Below the pieces are notes generated by a model. That model was not told where the DNA came from. It made no database searches and saw nothing but the letters and a program-made list of their open reading frames with translations. Position numbers and translations under genes: made by a program. A stretch of DNA of 64,000 bases from Candidatus Liptonbacteria bacterium (GTDB taxonomy: Bacteria > Patescibacteriota > Minisyncoccia > UBA6257 > 2-01-FULL-56-20), in contig JACQKT010000016.1 of the NCBI GenBank assembly GCA_016204355.1, forward strand, positions 47,269-111,268, given 5' to 3'. Below, in pieces: positions 1,802-22,939 of the stretch; positions within the stretch are counted from its first letter, which is position 1; the number at the start of each line of letters is the position of its first letter.

Positions 1802-1882
1802 TGGGCAGAGAGGGACTTGAACCCTCAAGCCTTGCGGCATACGGCCCTGAACCGTACGTGTTTGCCATTTCACCACCTGCCC
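1802..1882 (-). tRNA. tRNA-Leu (anticodon CAG), long variable arm
   Basis: The reverse complement gives GGGCAGG acceptor stem, anticodon loop TTCAGGG, a 13-nt variable arm, a GGTTCAAGTCC T-arm and discriminator A. The acceptor stem pairs 7/7 (one G-U). Confidence 0.7.
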
Positions 1883-2905: not shown

Positions 2906-4555
2906 TTACTTGAATGATCTTGCGGTTTTCAGATACCAATCGTGCACGTTCGCAAACCTGCCGGAAGATTCGTCTATCAGGCCTGTGTCTACGCCCTGAA
3001 GATCTTTTCTCGAGAAATAAACGTAATAAGGGGAGTAAAGGAAAACAGCCGGATAATCTTCGGCGATCAGATTTTGCAAATCTTTTATTTTTGATGTGCG
3101 CCCGGAATCATCGATGTCCGTATTTATGTCGGTTATCAAATTGTCTGCCTGTTTACTGTTGTACAAAGACAAATTCAAGCCCGGATAAAATCTTTGGGAT
3201 GAATGCCAAAAAGAAAATAGATCTGCCGGCGGATTAAGCATGTTGCCGAAGAGAACGGCCTGGTAATTTCTGTTTTTTATGGTATCACTCGTTATTTCTT
3301 CGGGCGAGATAGAGATTATGTTCATTTTTGCTCCTACGTCTGCCCAGTACGATTGAAGCTTCTCGGCGGTTTTTTGAAGAAAGGGTATTTGCGGGACGGA
3401 AAGATTGAATTCCAGGGCGACCTTAACTCCCTTTATTGTTTTTTGTCTTACTGTGGAAGAACCCGTGAAAATCCATCCACCGTCGTTGAAAATTTTCTCT
3501 GCGGCATTTTTGCCCTGGATATTGTTTTGGCTTTCCTCGTCTTGCAGGATTGAAGAAGAAAAAGGCCCGAAGCGGACTTCGCCGTTGCCGTTGAGTACTT
3601 CACTCACAAAATTGTCGCGATCGACTGCGGCGCTCAATCCCTGTCGCACTTTTTTATCCTGTAGCGCCAGATTTTGTCCCTGATTGAAAAAAACCGCATA
3701 GTAGCTCGGAAGGAAAAAAACATGAGCCTCATAAGAACGTTTTATGTCTTCTATGCGTCCCGATTCCACCGCAAACCCGTCTATTTGGCTGGAATTGAAA
3801 GCCGATATCATATCGTCCTGGTTCGAATAAAACCTTAAATCGAATTCGGTTATAAGAGGGCGACTGGCGAAATAAAAATTATTCGTTTTAAGGTTGTAAG
3901 ATTTTATGAAGCCGTCGTCGCGGATTTCGTAGGAATCGAAAACATACGGGCCGCTGCCGACCGGCTGAAGATTGTACTTGGACAACCGCCAATTCGAGAC
4001 GGGCGTTTCGGCAAACAAGTGCTTGGGGATGATATACAGTTTTTTAAGATTTTGCGGGAAAAAAGCATACGGGCTGCCCAAACTTATCTGAAGTTCCAGC
4101 TCGCTTACTCTCTTAATCGCAACTCCTTGCCAGCTCGAATAGAGAGGTGATCCGGAATCGGTGTCCTGTATTTTTTGGACGGTGAAAATAACATCGTCGC
4201 TGGTAAGCTTCTCTCCGTCGGACCAGCGTATATTTTCTTTCAGTCGTATGTCCCAATCGCGGTTGTCGTTAATTGAAACTATTTTGTCCGATAAATCGAC
4301 AAGATTGCTGAAAACAAGCTTCACTATGCTTCTGTCAGCGTCATTTGAGGCAGTAACGGGGTTTATATGCGAGGGTTGTCCCACTATGCCTTCAGTATAG
4401 TTTCCTCCCCTCGCCGGGACTACAACCGTTTTCTGATTTACCAGAACCGCGCCGAGACTTACGGAACTTCCCAGGGCAAGAATCAGAGCGATCATAAAAA
4501 TCACGCGTTCTGTTCTCGAAAGAGCAAAAAAAATTTTTTTGAAAATAAAGCTCAT
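2906..4555 (-). CDS. ABC transporter substrate-binding protein, family 5 (Opp/Dpp-like), N-terminal TM/signal anchor
   Basis: 549-558 aa with an N-terminal hydrophobic segment and SBP_bac_5-like length and composition. Start uncertain (ATG at 4555 preferred, 4582 possible). Confidence 0.55.
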   Translation of the reverse strand: MSFIFKKIFFALSRTERVIFMIALILALGSSVSLGAVLVNQKTVVVPARGGNYTEGIVGQPSHINPVTASNDADRSIVKLVFSNLVDLSDKIVSINDNRDWDIRLKENIRWSDGEKLTSDDVIFTVQKIQDTDSGSPLYSSWQGVAIKRVSELELQISLGSPYAFFPQNLKKLYIIPKHLFAETPVSNWRLSKYNLQPVGSGPYVFDSYEIRDDGFIKSYNLKTNNFYFASRPLITEFDLRFYSNQDDMISAFNSSQIDGFAVESGRIEDIKRSYEAHVFFLPSYYAVFFNQGQNLALQDKKVRQGLSAAVDRDNFVSEVLNGNGEVRFGPFSSSILQDEESQNNIQGKNAAEKIFNDGGWIFTGSSTVRQKTIKGVKVALEFNLSVPQIPFLQKTAEKLQSYWADVGAKMNIISISPEEITSDTIKNRNYQAVLFGNMLNPPADLFSFWHSSQRFYPGLNLSLYNSKQADNLITDINTDIDDSGRTSKIKDLQNLIAEDYPAVFLYSPYYVYFSRKDLQGVDTGLIDESSGRFANVHDWYLKTARSFK

Positions 4556-4964: not shown

Positions 4965-5318
4965 TTACTCTTTTGTCGCCAGATGAAAAATGAAATTTAC
5001 CAATCCTATGATTATCGACGAATAGAGAAGGGCAAAGACGCTTTCAATAGTAAGGTCTTGAGAAAGTATGTCAAGGATATATAAGACCAACATGTTGACG
5101 AAAATCAATCCGAAGCCGAGCGTGAGGATAATTATCGGTCCCAAAAGAAGCTTCAGCAAAGGCTTAAGAAACATATTCAAAGCCGTCAAAATCAGCGCAA
5201 GAATAGCAAGGTTTTTTAGGCTTACATCGAGATTGAATCCACTGATGAAGTAAGCCGCGGCGAAAAGCGCGACTCCGTTTATCACAACAGCCACTATCAA
5301 TTTGGCTATGAGTTTCAC
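4965..5318 (-). CDS. Phage holin family protein (superfamily IV/Phage_holin_4_2-like small membrane protein)
   Basis: 117 aa with 3-4 TM helices; pattern resembles the widespread chromosomal 'phage holin family protein'. Confidence 0.5.
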   Translation of the reverse strand: MKLIAKLIVAVVINGVALFAAAYFISGFNLDVSLKNLAILALILTALNMFLKPLLKLLLGPIIILTLGFGLIFVNMLVLYILDILSQDLTIESVFALLYSSIIIGLVNFIFHLATKE

Positions 5319-19068: not shown

Positions 19069-20355
19069 TTGACTTTGTTAATGGATAAATTTATCTTTAA
19101 TCAAACAATGAAAATCGCAATTGTATCGATAAATCTCGAGGCGCAAGGCGGGGGCAACCGCCAGATTTTGATTCTTGCAAGAAACCTTCAGAAGATGGGG
19201 AACAAGGTCGCGATATACACAGTCGCCGCAAATAAAGGAGCATTCTCGAAAATTCAGGAAAATTTGGATGTCAGGGTTATTCCTGCGCCGGGCGGAGCGA
19301 TGGACTGGAAAGCGAAACAAACGGGGTTCATCGGCAGAATGCTTTCAAGGATGCACCATTACCGGCAGGAACTGGAGGCGGCGAAGACGATTGCCGAAGC
19401 GATGGACGCCGATTTCGATGTCGTGAACGTGCACGATTTCGCCTATCAGGCGGCGTATTTTTACAAAAAGAGAAATCCGTCGTGCCGCGTCGTCTGGACA
19501 ATGAACGAGCCGCCGTATATTCATCTTAAAAAAGACGACTTCCTTTCCAATATCGGCAGTATCGTTTACAACAAAATGCGCGATTTCACTGAAAAGAAAT
19601 TCATTCGTGCCGTCGATGCCGGGGCTGTTCTCGCGCCTTTCCAGATGGAGTGGTTGAAAAAAAGGGGAGTAAATGAATCGAGAGTGATAATAAGCGGCGT
19701 CGATTTCGATGACTTCTACGCGCCGGCAAAAAGATTGCCTCAGGATTTGAGCAAAGAGCCCTTCGGCAAGGCTCAGAGCGGGCCGCTGAAGTTGATGACG
19801 CTCGGAACGCCGAACAAATATCGCCGGTACGAAGACGCGATAATTGCCGCTAAAATTCTCCGCGATAAGGGATTGAATGTTCGCCTAGATGTCGTTGCCA
19901 ATAACGTCTGGCAGGAAAACGAATATTGCGGAATGCTCGAAAAGCTCGTTAAAGAAAACAATCTCGAAAGTATCGTAAAGCTGAGTTTCGCGGGCGTTTC
20001 AGAAGAAGAACTGCGCCGGCTTTACAAGGAAAGCCATATACTTTTGCATCTTATCCACGTGCCGCCTATAAGGAGCGGTTCGACTTTCGGACTCGTTATA
20101 TGGGAAGCGATGGCGGCGGGAATTCTTGTTATAGCAAACCACGAACCGAAGCTCGGCTCGCGGCTGACCGACGGCGAAAACGCGGTTTTCGTAAAGCCCG
20201 AGAACGCCGCCGACCTTGCCGAAAAAATAGAAAAAATCGCCTCGCAGCCGGAACTATATTTCAAAATCGCGCAAAGCAGCCAGCGGTTCGTCAAAGAAAA
20301 CATATCGTGGGACATTTATGCCCGCGAAATGATGGAGTTGTTTACCCCAGTATAA
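19069..20355 (+). CDS. Glycosyltransferase family 4 (GT-B, retaining)
   Basis: MKIAIVS start region (probable true start ~19108); C-terminal EAMAAGILVI motif; paralog of the GT4 at 29.1 kb. Confidence 0.75.
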   Translation: MTLLMDKFIFNQTMKIAIVSINLEAQGGGNRQILILARNLQKMGNKVAIYTVAANKGAFSKIQENLDVRVIPAPGGAMDWKAKQTGFIGRMLSRMHHYRQELEAAKTIAEAMDADFDVVNVHDFAYQAAYFYKKRNPSCRVVWTMNEPPYIHLKKDDFLSNIGSIVYNKMRDFTEKKFIRAVDAGAVLAPFQMEWLKKRGVNESRVIISGVDFDDFYAPAKRLPQDLSKEPFGKAQSGPLKLMTLGTPNKYRRYEDAIIAAKILRDKGLNVRLDVVANNVWQENEYCGMLEKLVKENNLESIVKLSFAGVSEEELRRLYKESHILLHLIHVPPIRSGSTFGLVIWEAMAAGILVIANHEPKLGSRLTDGENAVFVKPENAADLAEKIEKIASQPELYFKIAQSSQRFVKENISWDIYAREMMELFTPV

Positions 20356-20370
20356 AATATTTATTGCCGG

Positions 20371-20616
20371 CGGTTTGTAAAGAAAACCGTCTCGCAGGCC
20401 GAACGGGCATGGTGCGTCATCCGTGTTTTTCGGAACCGCGGTTCGTACACTCCTGCGGCGTACGCCCGCTGCCTCTCGCTCCGACGTATTCGCAAAGCGA
20501 ATAACCAAGCCGTCGGAGCTCCGAGAGCTTCCTTAAAAATACGGATGACGCGAGCGAGGCCGAGAGCGAGCGCAAATTCCTCGCTGGGGAATTTGATAGC
20601 GTGTTTTCGTACAAAC
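20371..20616. repeat. GC-rich ~245-bp imperfect palindrome with nested inverted repeats (MITE-like or structured-RNA element)
   Basis: Terminal inverted repeats GCCGGCGGTTTGTA / TACAAACCGCCGGC; internal pairs GCGTCATCCGT/ACGGATGACGC and CTCTCGCTCCGACG/CGTCGGAGCTCCGAGAG; centre TATTCGCaaaGCGAATA. Confidence 0.7.
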
Positions 20617-20634
20617 CGCCGGCGGGAAAACTTA

Positions 20635-21831
20635 TTAAGAAATAACCTTGAACTTCGGGATGGAAACTATGAATTTCCCGCCCCTCTTGAAGAATCCTTT
20701 TTCTCTTTCCTTCTTTTTGAAGGATTCGATGAACCCCCACGGGAGAACGAAGAAATAATCGGGCTTTTCTGCCCTTGCATTACCCTCTTTTATTATCGGA
20801 ACCAATGTTCCGACGGTGAACTTGCCCCATTTTTTGGGGTCTTTGTCGGCAGCGGCGGCGATCAGTTTCGAGTTCAAGCCGTAATACTGGAGAATCGTGT
20901 TTCCCTTCGTTGAAGCTCCGTAAGCGTAAACCTTCTTTCCTTTTTTAACTTCCTTTTTGATGAACTCGACGGTTTTTTTCTTGTTTTCGACGAGACGTTT
21001 CGCGAATGCCTTGTAGTCGAATTTCAGTTCGCGGTATTTTATGCTTCCTTTCTTCAATTTTCTCGCGAACAGGCGGTAGCTGCCGCCGTTTATGCCGTTT
21101 TCCTCGACTTTGAAAATTTCCAATCCGTTTTTCTCAAAAAGATAAACCAGCGAGGGATAAGAATAAAATTCCAAATGTTCGTGGCAGATATTTCCAACGT
21201 CGTTTTTGAGAATCATCGGCTTGAGCGTCATCATCTGGGCGATGAAAAGGCCGTCGTCGGCGAGAACGCGCGCCGCGTCCCTGACGAACTGACTCGGGTC
21301 TTCCATGTCGTAGAACATCCCGATGGCCGTGATGATTTTCGCTTTCGGCAGACCGAGCTTGTCATATGTTTTCTTGTACCAGAAATCGTGGATGGCATAA
21401 TCGGCGTTTTTGCGGAGTTTCGCCTGAAGGTTGTCCGCCGGCTCACAGCCAACGCGAATGTATTTCTTCGGAACGAAACCGAGCATTGTGCCGTCGTTGG
21501 CGCCGATATCGAGAAAAACATCGCCTTTTTTCGGCTTGGCCATTTTTATGGTCTGCGAAACTATTTGCTTGAGGTCGCTGACGATGACGTTATTTATTCC
21601 GGACTCGTACCAGTAGTGGCGCGAGTACATAAGTTCCTGCGGAGCCGTGTGCTTGAGTTGAAGAAGGTCGCATTTCGGATTTTGGCAGAGGACCAGTTCG
21701 AGAGGCGAGCGCATTCCTTTTTCTTTTCTGCTTTTTACGAAAGTGGAAACGTAAAGATTTCCGAGATTGAGAATGCTTTTGAGTTTATTCGACCCGCAGA
21801 GCCGGCATGTTTTTCTTGTGATTATTTTCAT
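20635..21831 (-). CDS. SAM-dependent methyltransferase with N-terminal zinc ribbon and C-terminal C-methyltransferase domain (TylCIII/NDP-hexose 3-C-methyltransferase-like)
   Basis: Start taken at MKIITRKTCRLCGSNK...CQNPKC (4-Cys ribbon); LDIGANDG SAM motif; C-terminal Methyltransf_14-like region. The upstream 84 codons of the ORF are intergenic. Confidence 0.65.
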   Translation of the reverse strand: MKIITRKTCRLCGSNKLKSILNLGNLYVSTFVKSRKEKGMRSPLELVLCQNPKCDLLQLKHTAPQELMYSRHYWYESGINNVIVSDLKQIVSQTIKMAKPKKGDVFLDIGANDGTMLGFVPKKYIRVGCEPADNLQAKLRKNADYAIHDFWYKKTYDKLGLPKAKIITAIGMFYDMEDPSQFVRDAARVLADDGLFIAQMMTLKPMILKNDVGNICHEHLEFYSYPSLVYLFEKNGLEIFKVEENGINGGSYRLFARKLKKGSIKYRELKFDYKAFAKRLVENKKKTVEFIKKEVKKGKKVYAYGASTKGNTILQYYGLNSKLIAAAADKDPKKWGKFTVGTLVPIIKEGNARAEKPDYFFVLPWGFIESFKKKEREKGFFKRGGKFIVSIPKFKVIS

Positions 21832-22153: not shown

Positions 22154-22939
22154 ATGAATGCGCGTTTAAAAGAACTCGAAGAAAAAAGCATATCGGTCAT
22201 AAGGGAAGCGAAGGCGCGCTTCAAGAATATCGCCATGCTTTGGAGCATGGGCAAAGATTCCACAGTAACGCTTGGGCTCGCCCGGAAAGCGTTTCTCGGA
22301 GAAATTCCGTTTCCCGTAATACATATCGATAACGGCATAGATTTTCCGGAAACTTACGAACTCCGCGAGAAAGTTTCCAAAGATTGGGGATTCGAAATGG
22401 TTGTCGAAAAAAGCATAGTCAAACGGGATAAAATTTCCGGAGTGGATTGCTGCGGCGCGAACAAAACGGACGCGCTCAAAAAAGTCATGGATGAAAGAAA
22501 AATCGACGCGCTAATAGTTTCCATACGCCGCGACGAACACGGCATCCGCGCCAAGGAACGCTATTTTTCGCCGCGCGACAAGCAGTTCAACTGGGATTAC
22601 AAAAATCAGGCGCCGGAAATTTGGGACTATCTTTCGGATTTTCCGGGGAGCGACCATGTCCGCGTGCATCCGCTTCTTCACTGGCAGGAAATAGACGTTT
22701 GGAAATATCTTAAAGCCGAAAATCTTCCGGTCAATCCGCTTTATTTTTCGAAGAACGGAAAAAGATTCCGTTCGCTCGGATGCACGAAGTGCACGGTGGC
22801 AATGGATTCGGAAGCCAAAACCATAGACGAGATAATCGCCGAACTCGAAAAAACAACCGATTCCGAACGCGGCGGCCGAGCGCAGGACAAAGAAAAGGAA
22901 TATGTGATGCAGCAGTTGCGGGCGTTAGGGTATATGTAA
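22154..22939 (+). CDS. cysD: Sulfate adenylyltransferase subunit 2 (PAPS-reductase-fold ATP pyrophosphatase)
   Basis: LWSMGKDSTV PP-loop; overall collinear with E. coli CysD including the C-terminal ...RALGYM tail. Confidence 0.8.
   Translation: MNARLKELEEKSISVIREAKARFKNIAMLWSMGKDSTVTLGLARKAFLGEIPFPVIHIDNGIDFPETYELREKVSKDWGFEMVVEKSIVKRDKISGVDCCGANKTDALKKVMDERKIDALIVSIRRDEHGIRAKERYFSPRDKQFNWDYKNQAPEIWDYLSDFPGSDHVRVHPLLHWQEIDVWKYLKAENLPVNPLYFSKNGKRFRSLGCTKCTVAMDSEAKTIDEIIAELEKTTDSERGGRAQDKEKEYVMQQLRALGYM

What the first reader, a model, noticed from the sequence alone, without database searches (positions are those of the whole stretch)
20371..20616. ~245-bp GC-rich nested palindrome between convergent genes
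The element has perfect 14-bp terminal inverted repeats (GCCGGCGGTTTGTA / TACAAACCGCCGGC), at least two further internal inverted pairs, and a central TATTCGC-aaa-GCGAATA palindrome, so it can fold into one very long hairpin. Its GC content is clearly above the flanking genes. Four ORFs of 84-134 aa predicted inside it are artefacts. It is far more elaborate than a bidirectional terminator. It could be a MITE, a structured RNA or a recombination hotspot.
Basis: seen in the sequence. Interest (0 to 1): 0.6.

Follow-up and report, generated by a model that had tools for sequence, protein, structure and literature searches.

The report
Nested structured repeat element of Patescibacteria
The "nested palindrome" is real: it is two copies, one inside the other, of an apparently undescribed folded repeat element scattered through the tiny genomes of Patescibacteria (CPR bacteria), and it behaves like selfish DNA while showing the base-pair conservation of a functional RNA.

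Summary
The element is window 20366-20623 (258 nt). It fills the 279-nt gap between a convergent GT4 glycosyltransferase and a C-methyltransferase in a Candidatus Liptonbacteria MAG.

It is branched, not one long hairpin. It folds far better than shuffles (RNA z = -8.4, ssDNA z = -9.4). Rfam 15 has no match.

A six-frame translation search and one 21-mer scan of 185,579 species genomes found 23 further loci with relatives. All are in Patescibacteria, with up to three copies per genome. Several lie at contig ends.

Most copies are 135-195 nt ("A-type"). They have a variable closing stem P1, a near-invariant core of about 90 nt, and variable hairpin P4. Covariation is strong: 97% of cells paired against 81% in shuffles, and 18 of 42 pairs compensatory.

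In the window, P4 is replaced by a diverged relative ("B-type", 20414-20551) in reverse orientation. Four other genomes show the same nesting.

Copies lie in unrelated contexts and both orientations. They show no promoter signal, transposase or target duplication. One sits in-frame inside a pilin leader-peptide coding region, and a related contig with the same gene order lacks it there.

Best reading: a selfish, structure-dependent interspersed repeat, like REP, RPE or MITE elements. Its mobility mechanism is unknown.

The parts
20360..20379 (+). P1 5' arm, the closing stem of the outer (A-type) copy. The core 20366-20379 is a perfect 14-mer. 20360-20365 is a weak extension through two G-U pairs and three A-U pairs.
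   Evidence: P1 covaries in all 9 modelled pairs across 23 copies.
20380..20413 (+). A-type 5' conserved block, AAGAAAACCGTCTCGCAGGCCGAACGGGCATGGT. It holds the AAG linker, P2 5' strand GAAAAC (20382-20387), P3 5' strand (20388-20395), GGCC (20397-20400), a GA dinucleotide opposite a second GA, and the loop GGGCATGGT (20405-20413).
   Evidence: alignments A2, A3 and A5; CM R1 match 20365-20625 on the + strand, 131.9 bits, E = 4.6e-35.
20414..20551 (-). Inner B-type copy (138 nt) in reverse orientation, occupying the position of hairpin P4 of the outer copy. Its own P1 is 20414-20430 / 20535-20551. Its P3b is 20478-20486 / 20511-20519. Its P4 is the central palindrome 20487-20503. Its P5 hairpin lies at about 20433-20470.
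   Evidence: R1 matches 20415-20549 on the - strand, 28.6 bits, E = 3e-5 to 6e-6. The B-type alignment A7 has 43 predicted pairs, 34 with compensatory changes.
20552..20609 (+). A-type 3' conserved block, GAGCGAGGCCGAGAGCGAGCGCAAATTCCTCGCTGGGGAATTTGATAGCGTGTTTTCG. It includes the P5 hairpin 20573-20580 / 20588-20595 with loop TCGCTGG, and the P2 3' strand GTTTTC (20603-20608).
   Evidence: near-invariant in all full copies. P2 covaries GAAAAC/GUUUUC to GCAGAC/GUCUGC, and P5 covaries C-G to U-A.
20610..20629 (+). P1 3' arm (core 20610-20623).
19081..20355 (+). Flanking gene: GT4 glycosyltransferase. Its stop codon lies 10 nt before the 14-bp P1 core, and its C-terminus is intact compared with orthologues.
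20635..21831 (-). Flanking gene: sugar C-methyltransferase (start codon uncertain; the ORF is open to 22083). Its stop codon lies 11 nt after the 14-bp P1 core, and its C-terminus is intact.

Best explanation
Window 20366-20623 is a composite of two members of one family of interspersed, structured palindromic repeats specific to Patescibacteria (CPR bacteria).

Architecture. Each member folds, as a single strand, into a long closing stem (P1) that carries a three-way junction (P2; the arm P3-P3b-P4; hairpin P5). A conserved core of about 90 nt sits between stems that vary in sequence but stay paired. Here an A-type copy on the + strand carries a diverged B-type copy on the - strand in place of its P4 hairpin.

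Behaviour. I read the family as selfish, non-autonomous DNA that has spread, or once spread, within and between these small genomes. Spread would go through a form that must fold as single-stranded DNA or RNA. That requirement would explain why pairing and a core are conserved rather than the terminal sequences.

Local role. The copy in the window lies neutrally between two convergent genes. There its very stable hairpin probably acts, as a by-product, as a barrier between the two transcripts.

Shown: the family exists; it is restricted to Patescibacteria among the genomes scanned; it is multi-copy; stems covary; copies are nested; contexts and orientations vary; one related contig with the same gene order lacks the element; one copy is an in-frame insertion in a coding region.

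Inferred: that spread was by active transposition, that the folded single strand is the intermediate, and the barrier effect.
For: 1. Relatives exist. The six-frame translation of the element hit three 'proteins' whose N-termini are read-through translations of related elements. A 21-mer from the conserved block found 24 stretches among 185,579 species genomes. 23 are Patescibacteria MAGs and one is a chance hit.

2. Multi-copy. Three copies occur in JBBTQX01, and two each in CAYPDQ01, CAYISE01 and CAYIFL01. Six of the 23 lie within about 350 nt of a contig end and three are cut by one. The two Logan contigs of the window's own locus both stop at 20533. That position follows a 30-mer shared exactly with the inner copy in L033.

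3. Structure.
- Over 23 copies, 97.3% of cells are paired, against 81.3% in shuffles and 24-50% with slid partners.
- 155 cells show a change on both sides, against 46 in shuffles.
- 18 of 42 pairs have compensatory changes.
- The B-type has 34 of 43 pairs with compensatory changes.
- In P1, G-U pairs outnumber A-C by 30 to 9, so folding is selected on one strand.

4. Nesting. CM R1 matches the insert on the opposite strand in all five long forms: window, L011, L013, L016 and L033. It also matches B-type copies that lie outside any intact A-type copy.

5. Mobile-like distribution.
- Flanks are non-homologous between loci.
- Neighbours are unrelated housekeeping genes.
- Orientation relative to neighbours is mixed.
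- The same P1 type recurs in unrelated contexts and never as a solo hairpin in the loci held.
- No -10 box enrichment appears upstream: 5 of 21, against 5, 9 and 3 in controls.

6. Insertion polymorphism.
- L011 carries the element between the codons for MYKLF(P) and (P)KKSG|QSLIEVL of a pilin-like gene.
- Homologues at 66-77% identity start with ordinary 8-12-residue leaders.
- L044, a related contig with the same gene order (its pilin-like protein is 77% identical), has a 15-nt spacer at that position and no element.

7. Open frames exceed expectation: 59 against 33.5 +/- 4.2.

8. Orthologous loci of the window's closest relatives lack the element.
Against: - No transposase, reverse transcriptase or integrase was seen near any copy. 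No target-site duplication is visible, and ends are not conserved in sequence. No known transposition chemistry is therefore indicated.
- The core is almost identical in MAGs labelled Wolfe-, Jorgensen-, Azam- and Liptonbacteria. Together with covarying stems, that is what a functional RNA looks like.
- Part of the invariance is built in, because every scanned copy had to contain the exact 21-mer.
- Copies within one genome have quite different P1 and P4 stems, so no recent burst of identical copies was seen.
- Only one empty site was found, between loci whose pilin-like proteins are 77% identical. Exact insertion boundaries could not be read from it.
- Whole genomes could not be censused, and no expression data were available.
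Confidence: 0.6

Rival explanations
1. A family of paralogous functional structured RNAs that the host uses. Examples would be an RNA-stability or processing module, a protein-binding scaffold, or a small ribozyme. On this reading the window's copy is an expressed gene or a 3'-UTR element with an expanded P4 domain.
For: - Strong covariation around a highly conserved, partly unpaired core.
- G-U pairs exceed A-C, giving a strand bias.
- Variable-length peripheral stems and extra hairpins inserted in loops, in L036 and L040, as seen in many RNA families.
- A- and B-types share their architecture and the unpaired motifs GCNUGGU and CGCUGG.
Against: - No promoter-like signal upstream and no intrinsic terminator.
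- Orientation relative to host transcription is mixed, so about half the copies would be transcribed antisense.
- One copy lies inside a coding region.
- Copies are nested in reverse orientation.
- The element is absent from orthologous loci of close relatives.
- No conserved gene neighbour and no Rfam match.
Confidence: 0.22
2. A single-stranded-DNA recombination site, folded like an integron attC site or an IS200/IS605 or REP hairpin. It would be used by a host recombinase or HUH enzyme encoded elsewhere in trans. This is a specific mechanistic version of the mobile-element reading.
For: - Structure is conserved rather than end sequence, folding is strand-biased, and there is no target duplication.
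- The ssDNA fold has z = -9.4.
- Copies often sit within about 10 nt of stop codons.
Against: - No integrase, Y1/HUH or RAYT gene was found among 86 flanking ORFs.
- There are no cassette arrays and no common orientation.
- The element is much larger and more branched than attC, REP or IS200 end hairpins.
Confidence: 0.1
3. An unusually elaborate but single, locus-specific bidirectional terminator, or an assembly artefact such as a fold-back or chimeric join.
For: - It lies between convergent genes, about 10 nt from each stop codon.
- Independent Logan contigs break inside it.
Against: - At least 23 homologous copies exist in other genomes and in other kinds of context.
- No U-tract terminator is detected.
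- The first 168 nt are identical in two independent assemblies.
- P1 and inner-P1 arms are complementary although these stems differ between copies. A join of two different copies would not produce that.
Confidence: 0.03

Closest known systems
Rickettsia palindromic elements (RPEs)
   Same: - Palindromic repeats of about 100-150 bp in reduced genomes of host-dependent bacteria.
- Found in intergenic regions and also in-frame inside protein-coding genes.
- Several related sub-families.
- No linked transposase and an unknown mobility mechanism.
   Basis: the MITE review PMC10969869 and my own knowledge of Ogata et al. 2000. Here, one copy is in-frame in a pilin leader and open frames exceed expectation.
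   Different: No sequence relationship was seen. The hosts are Patescibacteria, not Rickettsia. In-ORF copies appear rare here: three protein clusters in a database of 5.8 billion. The structure is a three-way junction with covarying stems and a near-invariant core. Copies nest inside one another.
MITEs (for example Correia, ERIC, RUP)
   Same: Small, non-coding, multi-copy and able to fold into long hairpins. They lie between genes and occasionally within genes, and can nest. They can affect transcript ends (PMC10969869).
   Different: The terminal inverted repeats are not conserved in sequence; they covary. No target-site duplication and no parent IS or transposase were found.
REP / BIME / REPIN elements mobilised by RAYT transposases
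   Same: Extragenic palindromes found in both orientations near gene ends. They are thought to be recognised as folded single strands and leave no target duplication (my own knowledge).
   Different: REPs are 20-40 nt simple hairpins with a conserved sequence. No RAYT-like gene was seen in the sampled flanks. The present elements are 135-280 nt and branched.
Integron attC sites
   Same: Structure is conserved more than sequence, one strand is the one that folds, and they sit just after stop codons (my own knowledge).
   Different: There are no R/L core boxes at the base, no cassette arrays, no integrase, and mixed orientation. The inner core is conserved rather than the outer ends.
Curated structured RNA families (Rfam 15)
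   Same: Covariation-supported helices, conserved loops and variable peripheral stems.
   Different: No family reaches even E = 0.01 on the long or the short form. The best hits are chance hairpin resemblances: Fibrobacter-1 at 18.7 bits against a gathering score of 77.9, and mir-1460 at 23.8 against 74.

Membership tests
MITE | Terminal inverted repeats conserved in sequence among copies (the transposase binding sites) | tested here: not met
   P1 arms differ almost completely between copies while staying paired. All 9 modelled P1 pairs show changes on both sides.
MITE | Target-site duplication flanking each copy | tested here: not met
   Flanks of 23 copies were inspected by eye. No recurrent direct repeat abuts P1, and the flanks more often extend the palindrome. 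Boundaries are not exactly defined, so short duplications cannot be fully excluded.
MITE | Multi-copy, short, non-coding, dispersed | tested here: met
   Up to three copies per partially sampled genome, 135-280 nt each, in unrelated contexts.
MITE | A related autonomous IS or transposase sharing the ends | tested here: inconclusive
   None among the 86 flanking ORFs. Whole genomes could not be searched.
Rickettsia palindromic elements (as a kind: in-frame palindromic selfish DNA) | Insertion in-frame within protein-coding genes, without stop codons | tested here: met
   In L011, removing 273 nt restores the leader MYKLFPKKSG|QSLIEVL. Homologues and the related locus L044 lack the element. In L016, removing 279 nt restores a signal peptide. 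These cases are a minority and were found through a protein search, so ascertainment is biased.
Rickettsia palindromic elements (as a family) | Sequence homology to RPE-1 to RPE-10; host genus Rickettsia | not tested
   No RPE sequences were available for comparison. All hosts found here are Patescibacteria, so membership by descent is not claimed.
REP/REPIN | A 20-40 nt conserved palindrome, with a RAYT gene in the genome | tested here: not met
   The size and branched fold differ. No Y1 transposase was found in the flanks. Genome-wide presence was not testable.
Intrinsic (bidirectional) terminator | A short G+C-rich stem-loop followed by a U-tract on the transcribed strand(s) | tested here: not met
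   No terminator-like site in 20200-20800. The stem system is 258 nt long.
Integron attC | R''/L''-L'/R' boxes, cassette array, nearby intI | tested here: not met
   No arrays, mixed orientation and no integrase among neighbours. The R/L boxes themselves were not searched for.
Known RNA families (6S, SRP, RNase P, tmRNA, tRNA, riboswitches, ribozymes, group I/II introns) | A match to the family's covariance model at or near its gathering score | tested here: not met
   Rfam 15 in gathering and E-value modes on the long and short forms. ARAGORN finds nothing.
Retron or other RT-associated ncRNA | An adjacent reverse transcriptase gene | tested here: not met
   No reverse transcriptase among the 86 flanking ORFs. 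The window's neighbours are a glycosyltransferase and a methyltransferase.
Cis-regulatory 5'-UTR RNA (riboswitch or leader) | A constant orientation and position upstream of a related set of genes | tested here: not met
   In the window the element lies 3' of both neighbours. Elsewhere the orientation is mixed and the neighbours are unrelated.

The most novel reading that the evidence does not exclude
The A- and B-type elements are a new class of mobile element in Patescibacteria that propagates through its fold rather than through conserved ends.

Two forms of this are possible:
- a small RNA, possibly catalytic, that is copied back into DNA;
- a single-stranded-DNA substrate of a still unrecognised CPR enzyme.

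Such an element would insert preferentially into hairpin loops, including the P4 loop of its own relatives, and next to gene boundaries. It would be shaped to be 'stealthy' when it lands in coding sequence, by having few stop codons in either orientation. One example is its landing in cleaved leader or signal peptides of pilins.
Probability: 0.2. Interest if true: 0.85.

Novelty: new variant of a known kind. Interest (0 to 1): 0.7.

Why it matters
Patescibacteria are a large share of bacterial diversity. Their genomes are about 1 Mb and are usually described as poor in mobile elements and hard to annotate.

A widespread repeat with a near-invariant core and covarying stems has three consequences:

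1. Practical. It breaks metagenome assemblies (contigs end in it). It also produces false N-terminal extensions and spurious ORFs in gene calls.
2. Evolutionary. It marks sites of gene-content change in surface-structure loci, namely polysaccharide and type IV pilus clusters.
3. Mechanistic. It raises an open question: what machinery in such reduced cells recognises a folded 3-way-junction element?

If the fold is an RNA with a function of its own, it would be one of the few lineage-specific structured RNAs known from this radiation.

Tried and rejected
- **Outer inverted repeat as a search pattern.** An exact pair of arms with a 215-245 nt gap gave 0 hits in genome contigs. The ends are not the conserved part.
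- **BLASTN.** The element found nothing in the plasmid or phage collections.
- **Viral contig scans.** Two window-specific patterns gave nothing. The conserved 21-mer gave three contigs that the covariance model rejects, so they are chance matches.
- **Rfam.** Gathering and E-value modes gave no credible family.
- **Exact-protein look-ups.** The GT start at 19108, the GDP-mannose-dehydratase-like gene and two methyltransferase start variants are not on record. I therefore could not check whether an independent contig enters the element from the right.
- **Orthologous loci of the window's glycosyltransferase (L003, L007).** No element is present, and the gene content differs, so no clean empty site exists for this copy.
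- **Own promoter.** No enrichment of -10-like boxes.
- **P1 as a pre-existing host hairpin into which a core inserts.** Rejected. The same P1 type recurs in unrelated contexts in five contigs, and no solo P1 hairpins were found in the loci held.
- **Pseudoknot between the P5 loop and the GAGCGA strand.** The variants in L027 and L037 are not compensatory, so I dropped it.
- **tRNA, tmRNA and tRNA-like readings.** These were suggested by GGCCGAGCGG. ARAGORN and Rfam are both negative.
- **Self-splicing intron reading of the in-ORF copies.** Rejected, because two of the three are antisense to the gene.

Full report
**1. Checking the observation**

- A perfect 14-bp inverted repeat (GCCGGCGGTTTGTA / TACAAACCGCCGGC) lies at 20366-20379 and 20610-20623.
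- A second pair lies at 20414-20430 / 20535-20551 (16 of 17 complementary).
- A third pair lies at 20478-20486 / 20511-20519.
- The central TATTCGC-AAA-GCGAATA is at 20487-20503.

The element (258 nt) takes up nearly all of the 279-nt gap between two convergent genes. One is a GT4 glycosyltransferase (19081-20355, +). The other is a sugar C-methyltransferase (20635-21831 or longer, -). Both belong to a polysaccharide-biosynthesis cluster.

G+C peaks at 0.585, against 0.46 for the window. The fold is far better than dinucleotide shuffles:

| Molecule and strand | Energy (kcal/mol) | z-score |
|---|---|---|
| RNA, + strand | -135.5 | -8.4 |
| RNA, - strand | -125.9 | -6.5 |
| ssDNA, + strand | -82.5 | -9.4 |

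The inverted pairs do not share one centre, and the two halves are unequal (34 and 58 nt between the outer and inner arms). The structure is therefore branched, not a single long hairpin.

The element occurs once in the 64-kb window. It matches no Rfam 15 family, no tRNA or tmRNA, and no consensus terminator.

**2. Host and local context**

A 415-aa protein 100% identical to the glycosyltransferase is on record from a MAG named Candidatus Liptonbacteria (Patescibacteria/CPR).

Two independent Logan assemblies (SRR12113383 and SRR12113384) carry the same gene and the first 168 nt of the element, with identical sequence. Both contigs end at window position 20533.

In the closest relative (L003, glycosyltransferase 75% identical), four genes separate the glycosyltransferase from the methyltransferase and there is no element. 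L007 (66% identical) also lacks it. The C-termini of both flanking genes in the window are intact.

**3. Finding relatives**

Searches built on the terminal repeat failed. That failure was itself informative, because the ends turned out not to be the conserved part.

What worked was searching the protein database with the concatenated six-frame translation of the element. Three database 'proteins' have N-termini that are read-through translations of related elements lying upstream of pilin-like genes. Their loci (L011, L013, L016) gave the first alignment. It shows two near-invariant blocks:
- 5' block: AAGAAAACCGTCTCGCAGGCCGAGCGGGCATGGTGC
- 3' block: GCGAGCGAGGCCGAGAGCGAGCGCAAATTCCTCGCTGGGGAATTTGATAGCGTGTTTTCG

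Around these blocks, the outer stem and the long inner stem differ in sequence but remain complementary.

A 21-mer from the 3' block was then scanned over one genome from each of 185,579 species and returned 24 stretches. 23 are Patescibacteria MAGs, labelled Minisyncoccia, Wolfe-, Jorgensen- and Azambacteria, 'Patescibacteria group', or Saccharibacteria. One (Haladaptatus) is a chance hit that the covariance model rejects.

Several genomes have two or three copies. Six of the 23 lie within about 350 nt of a contig end and three are cut by one.

The same 21-mer in IMG/VR hit three contigs that are not elements. Plasmid and phage collections have nothing.

**4. The family**

Most copies are a short form of 135-195 nt. 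In order along the strand it reads:
- P1, a closing stem of 6-27 bp that is different in nearly every copy;
- an AAG linker;
- P2 (GAAAAC/GUUUUC, covarying to GCAGAC/GUCUGC);
- P3;
- a GGCC/GGCC helix continued by two GA dinucleotides facing each other and a 2-bp helix, whose G-C pair becomes A-U in both L027 and L037;
- a conserved loop GGGCAUGGU;
- P4, a hairpin of variable length;
- then, on the 3' side, hairpin P5 (CAAAUUCC/GGAAUUUG, loop UCGCUGG).

Evidence for this structure on a model-based alignment of 23 copies:
- 97.3% of cells form standard pairs, against 81.3% in column shuffles and 24-50% when partners are slid by 1-3 columns.
- 155 cells carry changes on both sides, against 46 in shuffles.
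- 18 of 42 pairs show compensatory changes (all 9 in P1, all 4 in P4, 3 in P2).

One caveat applies. P3, GGCC and part of P5 are invariant partly by construction, because every scanned copy had to contain the 21-mer.

In P1, G-U pairs outnumber A-C mismatches 30 to 9 (336 Watson-Crick pairs). Pairing is therefore selected on the strand that is the + strand of the window. That fits either RNA or single-stranded DNA.

L036 and L040 carry extra hairpins in other loops. The short form has no Rfam match either.

**5. The window's element is a nested composite**

A covariance model built only from short forms (R1) matches window 20365-20625 on the + strand (131.9 bits). It also matches the 135-nt insert 20415-20549 on the - strand (28.6 bits, E about 1e-5).

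The same holds in the other four long forms (L011, L013, L016, L033; 32-40 bits). In each, the insert replaces P4 and lies in reverse orientation.

Copies of this 'B-type' also occur outside an intact A-type copy (L013 11331-11462, L033 4964-5104, L025 5576-5719, and others). The L013 copy, however, still carries about 12 nt of the A-type 5' block on one side. It may be the remnant of another composite.

Aligned on their own, B-type copies give 43 predicted pairs, 34 with compensatory changes. The architecture is the same as in the A-type. The shared unpaired motifs are AAG, a 3-nt bulge after P3, GCNUGGU before P4, AG before P5, and CGCUGG in the P5 loop.

This also explains the Logan contig ends. 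Position 20533 follows the 30-mer ACCAAGCCGTCGGAGCTCCGAGAGCTTCCT, which occurs identically in the inner copy of L033. It is a repeat that would branch a k = 31 assembly graph.

P1 and inner-P1 sequences differ between copies, yet both pairs of arms in the window are complementary. A chimeric join of two different copies is therefore unlikely.

**6. How the copies behave in genomes**

- Flanks of different copies are not homologous (tblastx).
- The 86 nearest ORFs are ordinary and unrelated: GatB, MreB, DnaE, ligase, aminoacyl-tRNA synthetases, glycosyltransferases and pilus genes. None is a transposase, integrase or reverse transcriptase.
- Orientation relative to neighbours is mixed: co-directional, antisense, or between convergent genes.
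- There is no excess of -10-like boxes upstream (5 of 21, against 5, 9 and 3 in controls).
- The same P1 type (for example GCAGGCAATTCGC) recurs in five contigs in unrelated contexts and was never found as a solo hairpin in the loci held. P1 therefore travels with the element and is not a pre-existing host hairpin.
- No target-site duplication is apparent.
- Copies from one genome share small core variants (L027 and L037; L023 and L028) but have unrelated P1 and P4 stems.

**7. Insertion polymorphism and in-frame copies**

*L011.* The element lies inside the 5' end of a pilin-like gene.
- The reading frame runs from an ATG that overlaps the upstream stop codon, through all 273 nt of the element, into KKSG|QSLIEVL.
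- Deleting 4972-5244 gives MYKLFPKKSG|QSLIEVL.
- Homologues at 66-77% identity are about 97 residues shorter. They start with ordinary prepilin leaders such as MNRFNKRSG|QSLIEII and MNLLNKKGG|QSLIEIL.
- L044, a related contig with the same gene order (T2SSE, T2SSF, a 167-aa gene, then the pilin-like gene), carries the 77%-identical homologue.
- In L044 the upstream protein ends ...NPNGSIEF; in L011 it ends ...NPNGSITF.
- L044 has a 15-nt spacer at this position and no element.

*L016.* Deleting 661-939 (279 nt) restores a typical signal peptide, MKLIRVIIIIVLFLLGRTTFAA.

*Stop codons.* Across 23 copies, 59 of 138 frames are open, against 33.5 +/- 4.2 in shuffles. The copies are related, so this is only suggestive.

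These in-ORF cases were found through a protein search and are rare: three clusters in 5.8 billion. They show that the element can land in coding sequence and be tolerated. They do not show that this is typical.

**8. Interpretation**

*Shown.* The family is restricted to Patescibacteria among the genomes scanned, is multi-copy, and is dispersed. Its members have a conserved single-strand fold, nest within each other, differ in presence between related genomes, and have no recognisable promoter or partner gene.

*Inferred.* These are selfish, non-autonomous repeats that spread through a folded single-stranded intermediate. That would account for selection on pairing and on a core rather than on terminal sequences.

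The mechanism (ssDNA enzyme, RNA intermediate or recombination) is unknown.

In the window, the copy sits harmlessly between two stop codons at a point where gene content differs from the nearest relative. Its very stable stem system probably blocks read-through between the convergent genes. That is a by-product, and I did not test it.

The main rival is a host-used structured RNA family. The degree of conservation keeps it alive. It is weakened by the mixed orientation, the missing promoter signal, the in-ORF and nested copies, and the absence from orthologous loci.

**9. Comparison with known kinds**

- The closest analogy in behaviour is the Rickettsia palindromic elements: palindromic, about 150 bp, found in reduced genomes, often in-frame in genes, with no known transposase (PMC10969869, and my own knowledge).
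- MITEs and REP/BIME elements share other traits.
- The family fails the defining MITE tests (conserved terminal repeats, target duplication). It also fails those of REP, attC, terminators and all Rfam families.
- Full-text searches found no description of it: Candidate Phyla Radiation with structured RNA; Patescibacteria with MITE; Parcubacteria with palindromic repeats; and the core sequence itself. The library is incomplete, so prior description cannot be excluded.

**10. Verdict**

This is a real and non-trivial feature. I class it as a new variant of the interspersed-palindromic-repeat kind, with unusually RNA-like conservation and self-nesting. Interest 0.7.

Noticed in passing
L011 4955-5260; L016 639-970; L013 10001-10360: Gene callers fused the element to the downstream pilin-like or secreted-protein gene. 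In each case the called ATG overlaps the upstream gene's stop codon, and the frame stays open through the whole element, which is antisense to the gene in L011 and L016 and sense in L013. No canonical start codon lies between the element and the mature N-terminus in L011 and L013.
   Followed up: partly
window 20356-20634 compared with L003 7222-10995: The element sits exactly where the closest relative has four extra genes: a second glycosyltransferase, a 243-aa hypothetical, a His_Phos_1 phosphatase and a Mem_trans permease. This is a break in shared gene order inside a polysaccharide cluster. The direction of change (deletion or insertion) is unknown.
   Followed up: partly
L001 and L002 (ends at window 20533); L021, L026, L030 (cut by contig ends); the contig of P0050: Metagenome contigs repeatedly end inside these elements. 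The family is a systematic cause of assembly breaks in Patescibacteria MAGs.
   Followed up: partly
L040 4398-4586; L036 5780-5973: Two otherwise typical short copies carry extra structured inserts at other loops. L040 has about 51 nt in the P5 loop. L036 has a hairpin of about 36 nt in the GAGC loop and an unusual P4 region. I did not test whether these inserts are further nested relatives.
   Followed up: no
L038 7177-7454; L025 5383-5719: These are adjacent copies in opposite orientation. L038 has two diverged A-like 3' halves flanking a G+C-rich hairpin (CCCCTCCCCAGTTTT...AAAACTGGGGAGGGG). L025 has an A-type and a B-type copy 28 nt apart.
   Followed up: no
L037 about 3570-3600: The 3' flank of this copy contains GGATTCGAACC, which looks like the reverse complement of a tRNA T-arm. 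A tRNA gene may abut the element.
   Followed up: no
window 1802-1882 (-): This is the only Rfam hit in the window: an 81-nt tRNA with an insert in the variable-arm region relative to the 71-position model (50.8 bits).
   Followed up: no
L003 12562-13221; L007 4608-4955: In the relatives' polysaccharide clusters a GIY-YIG nuclease domain appears. It is fused to the PAPS-reductase-like gene in L003 and is a separate 115-aa ORF in L007. The window's PAPS-reductase homologue (22154-22939) shows only the PAPS_reduct domain.
   Followed up: no
L013 11331-11462: This second B-type copy lies 1.2 kb from the composite in the same genome. Its P1 is almost the same, with one compensatory double change (GCATATG/CATATGC against GCGTATG/CATACGC). 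It retains about 12 nt of the A-type 5' block on one side, so it may be the remnant of another composite.
   Followed up: partly
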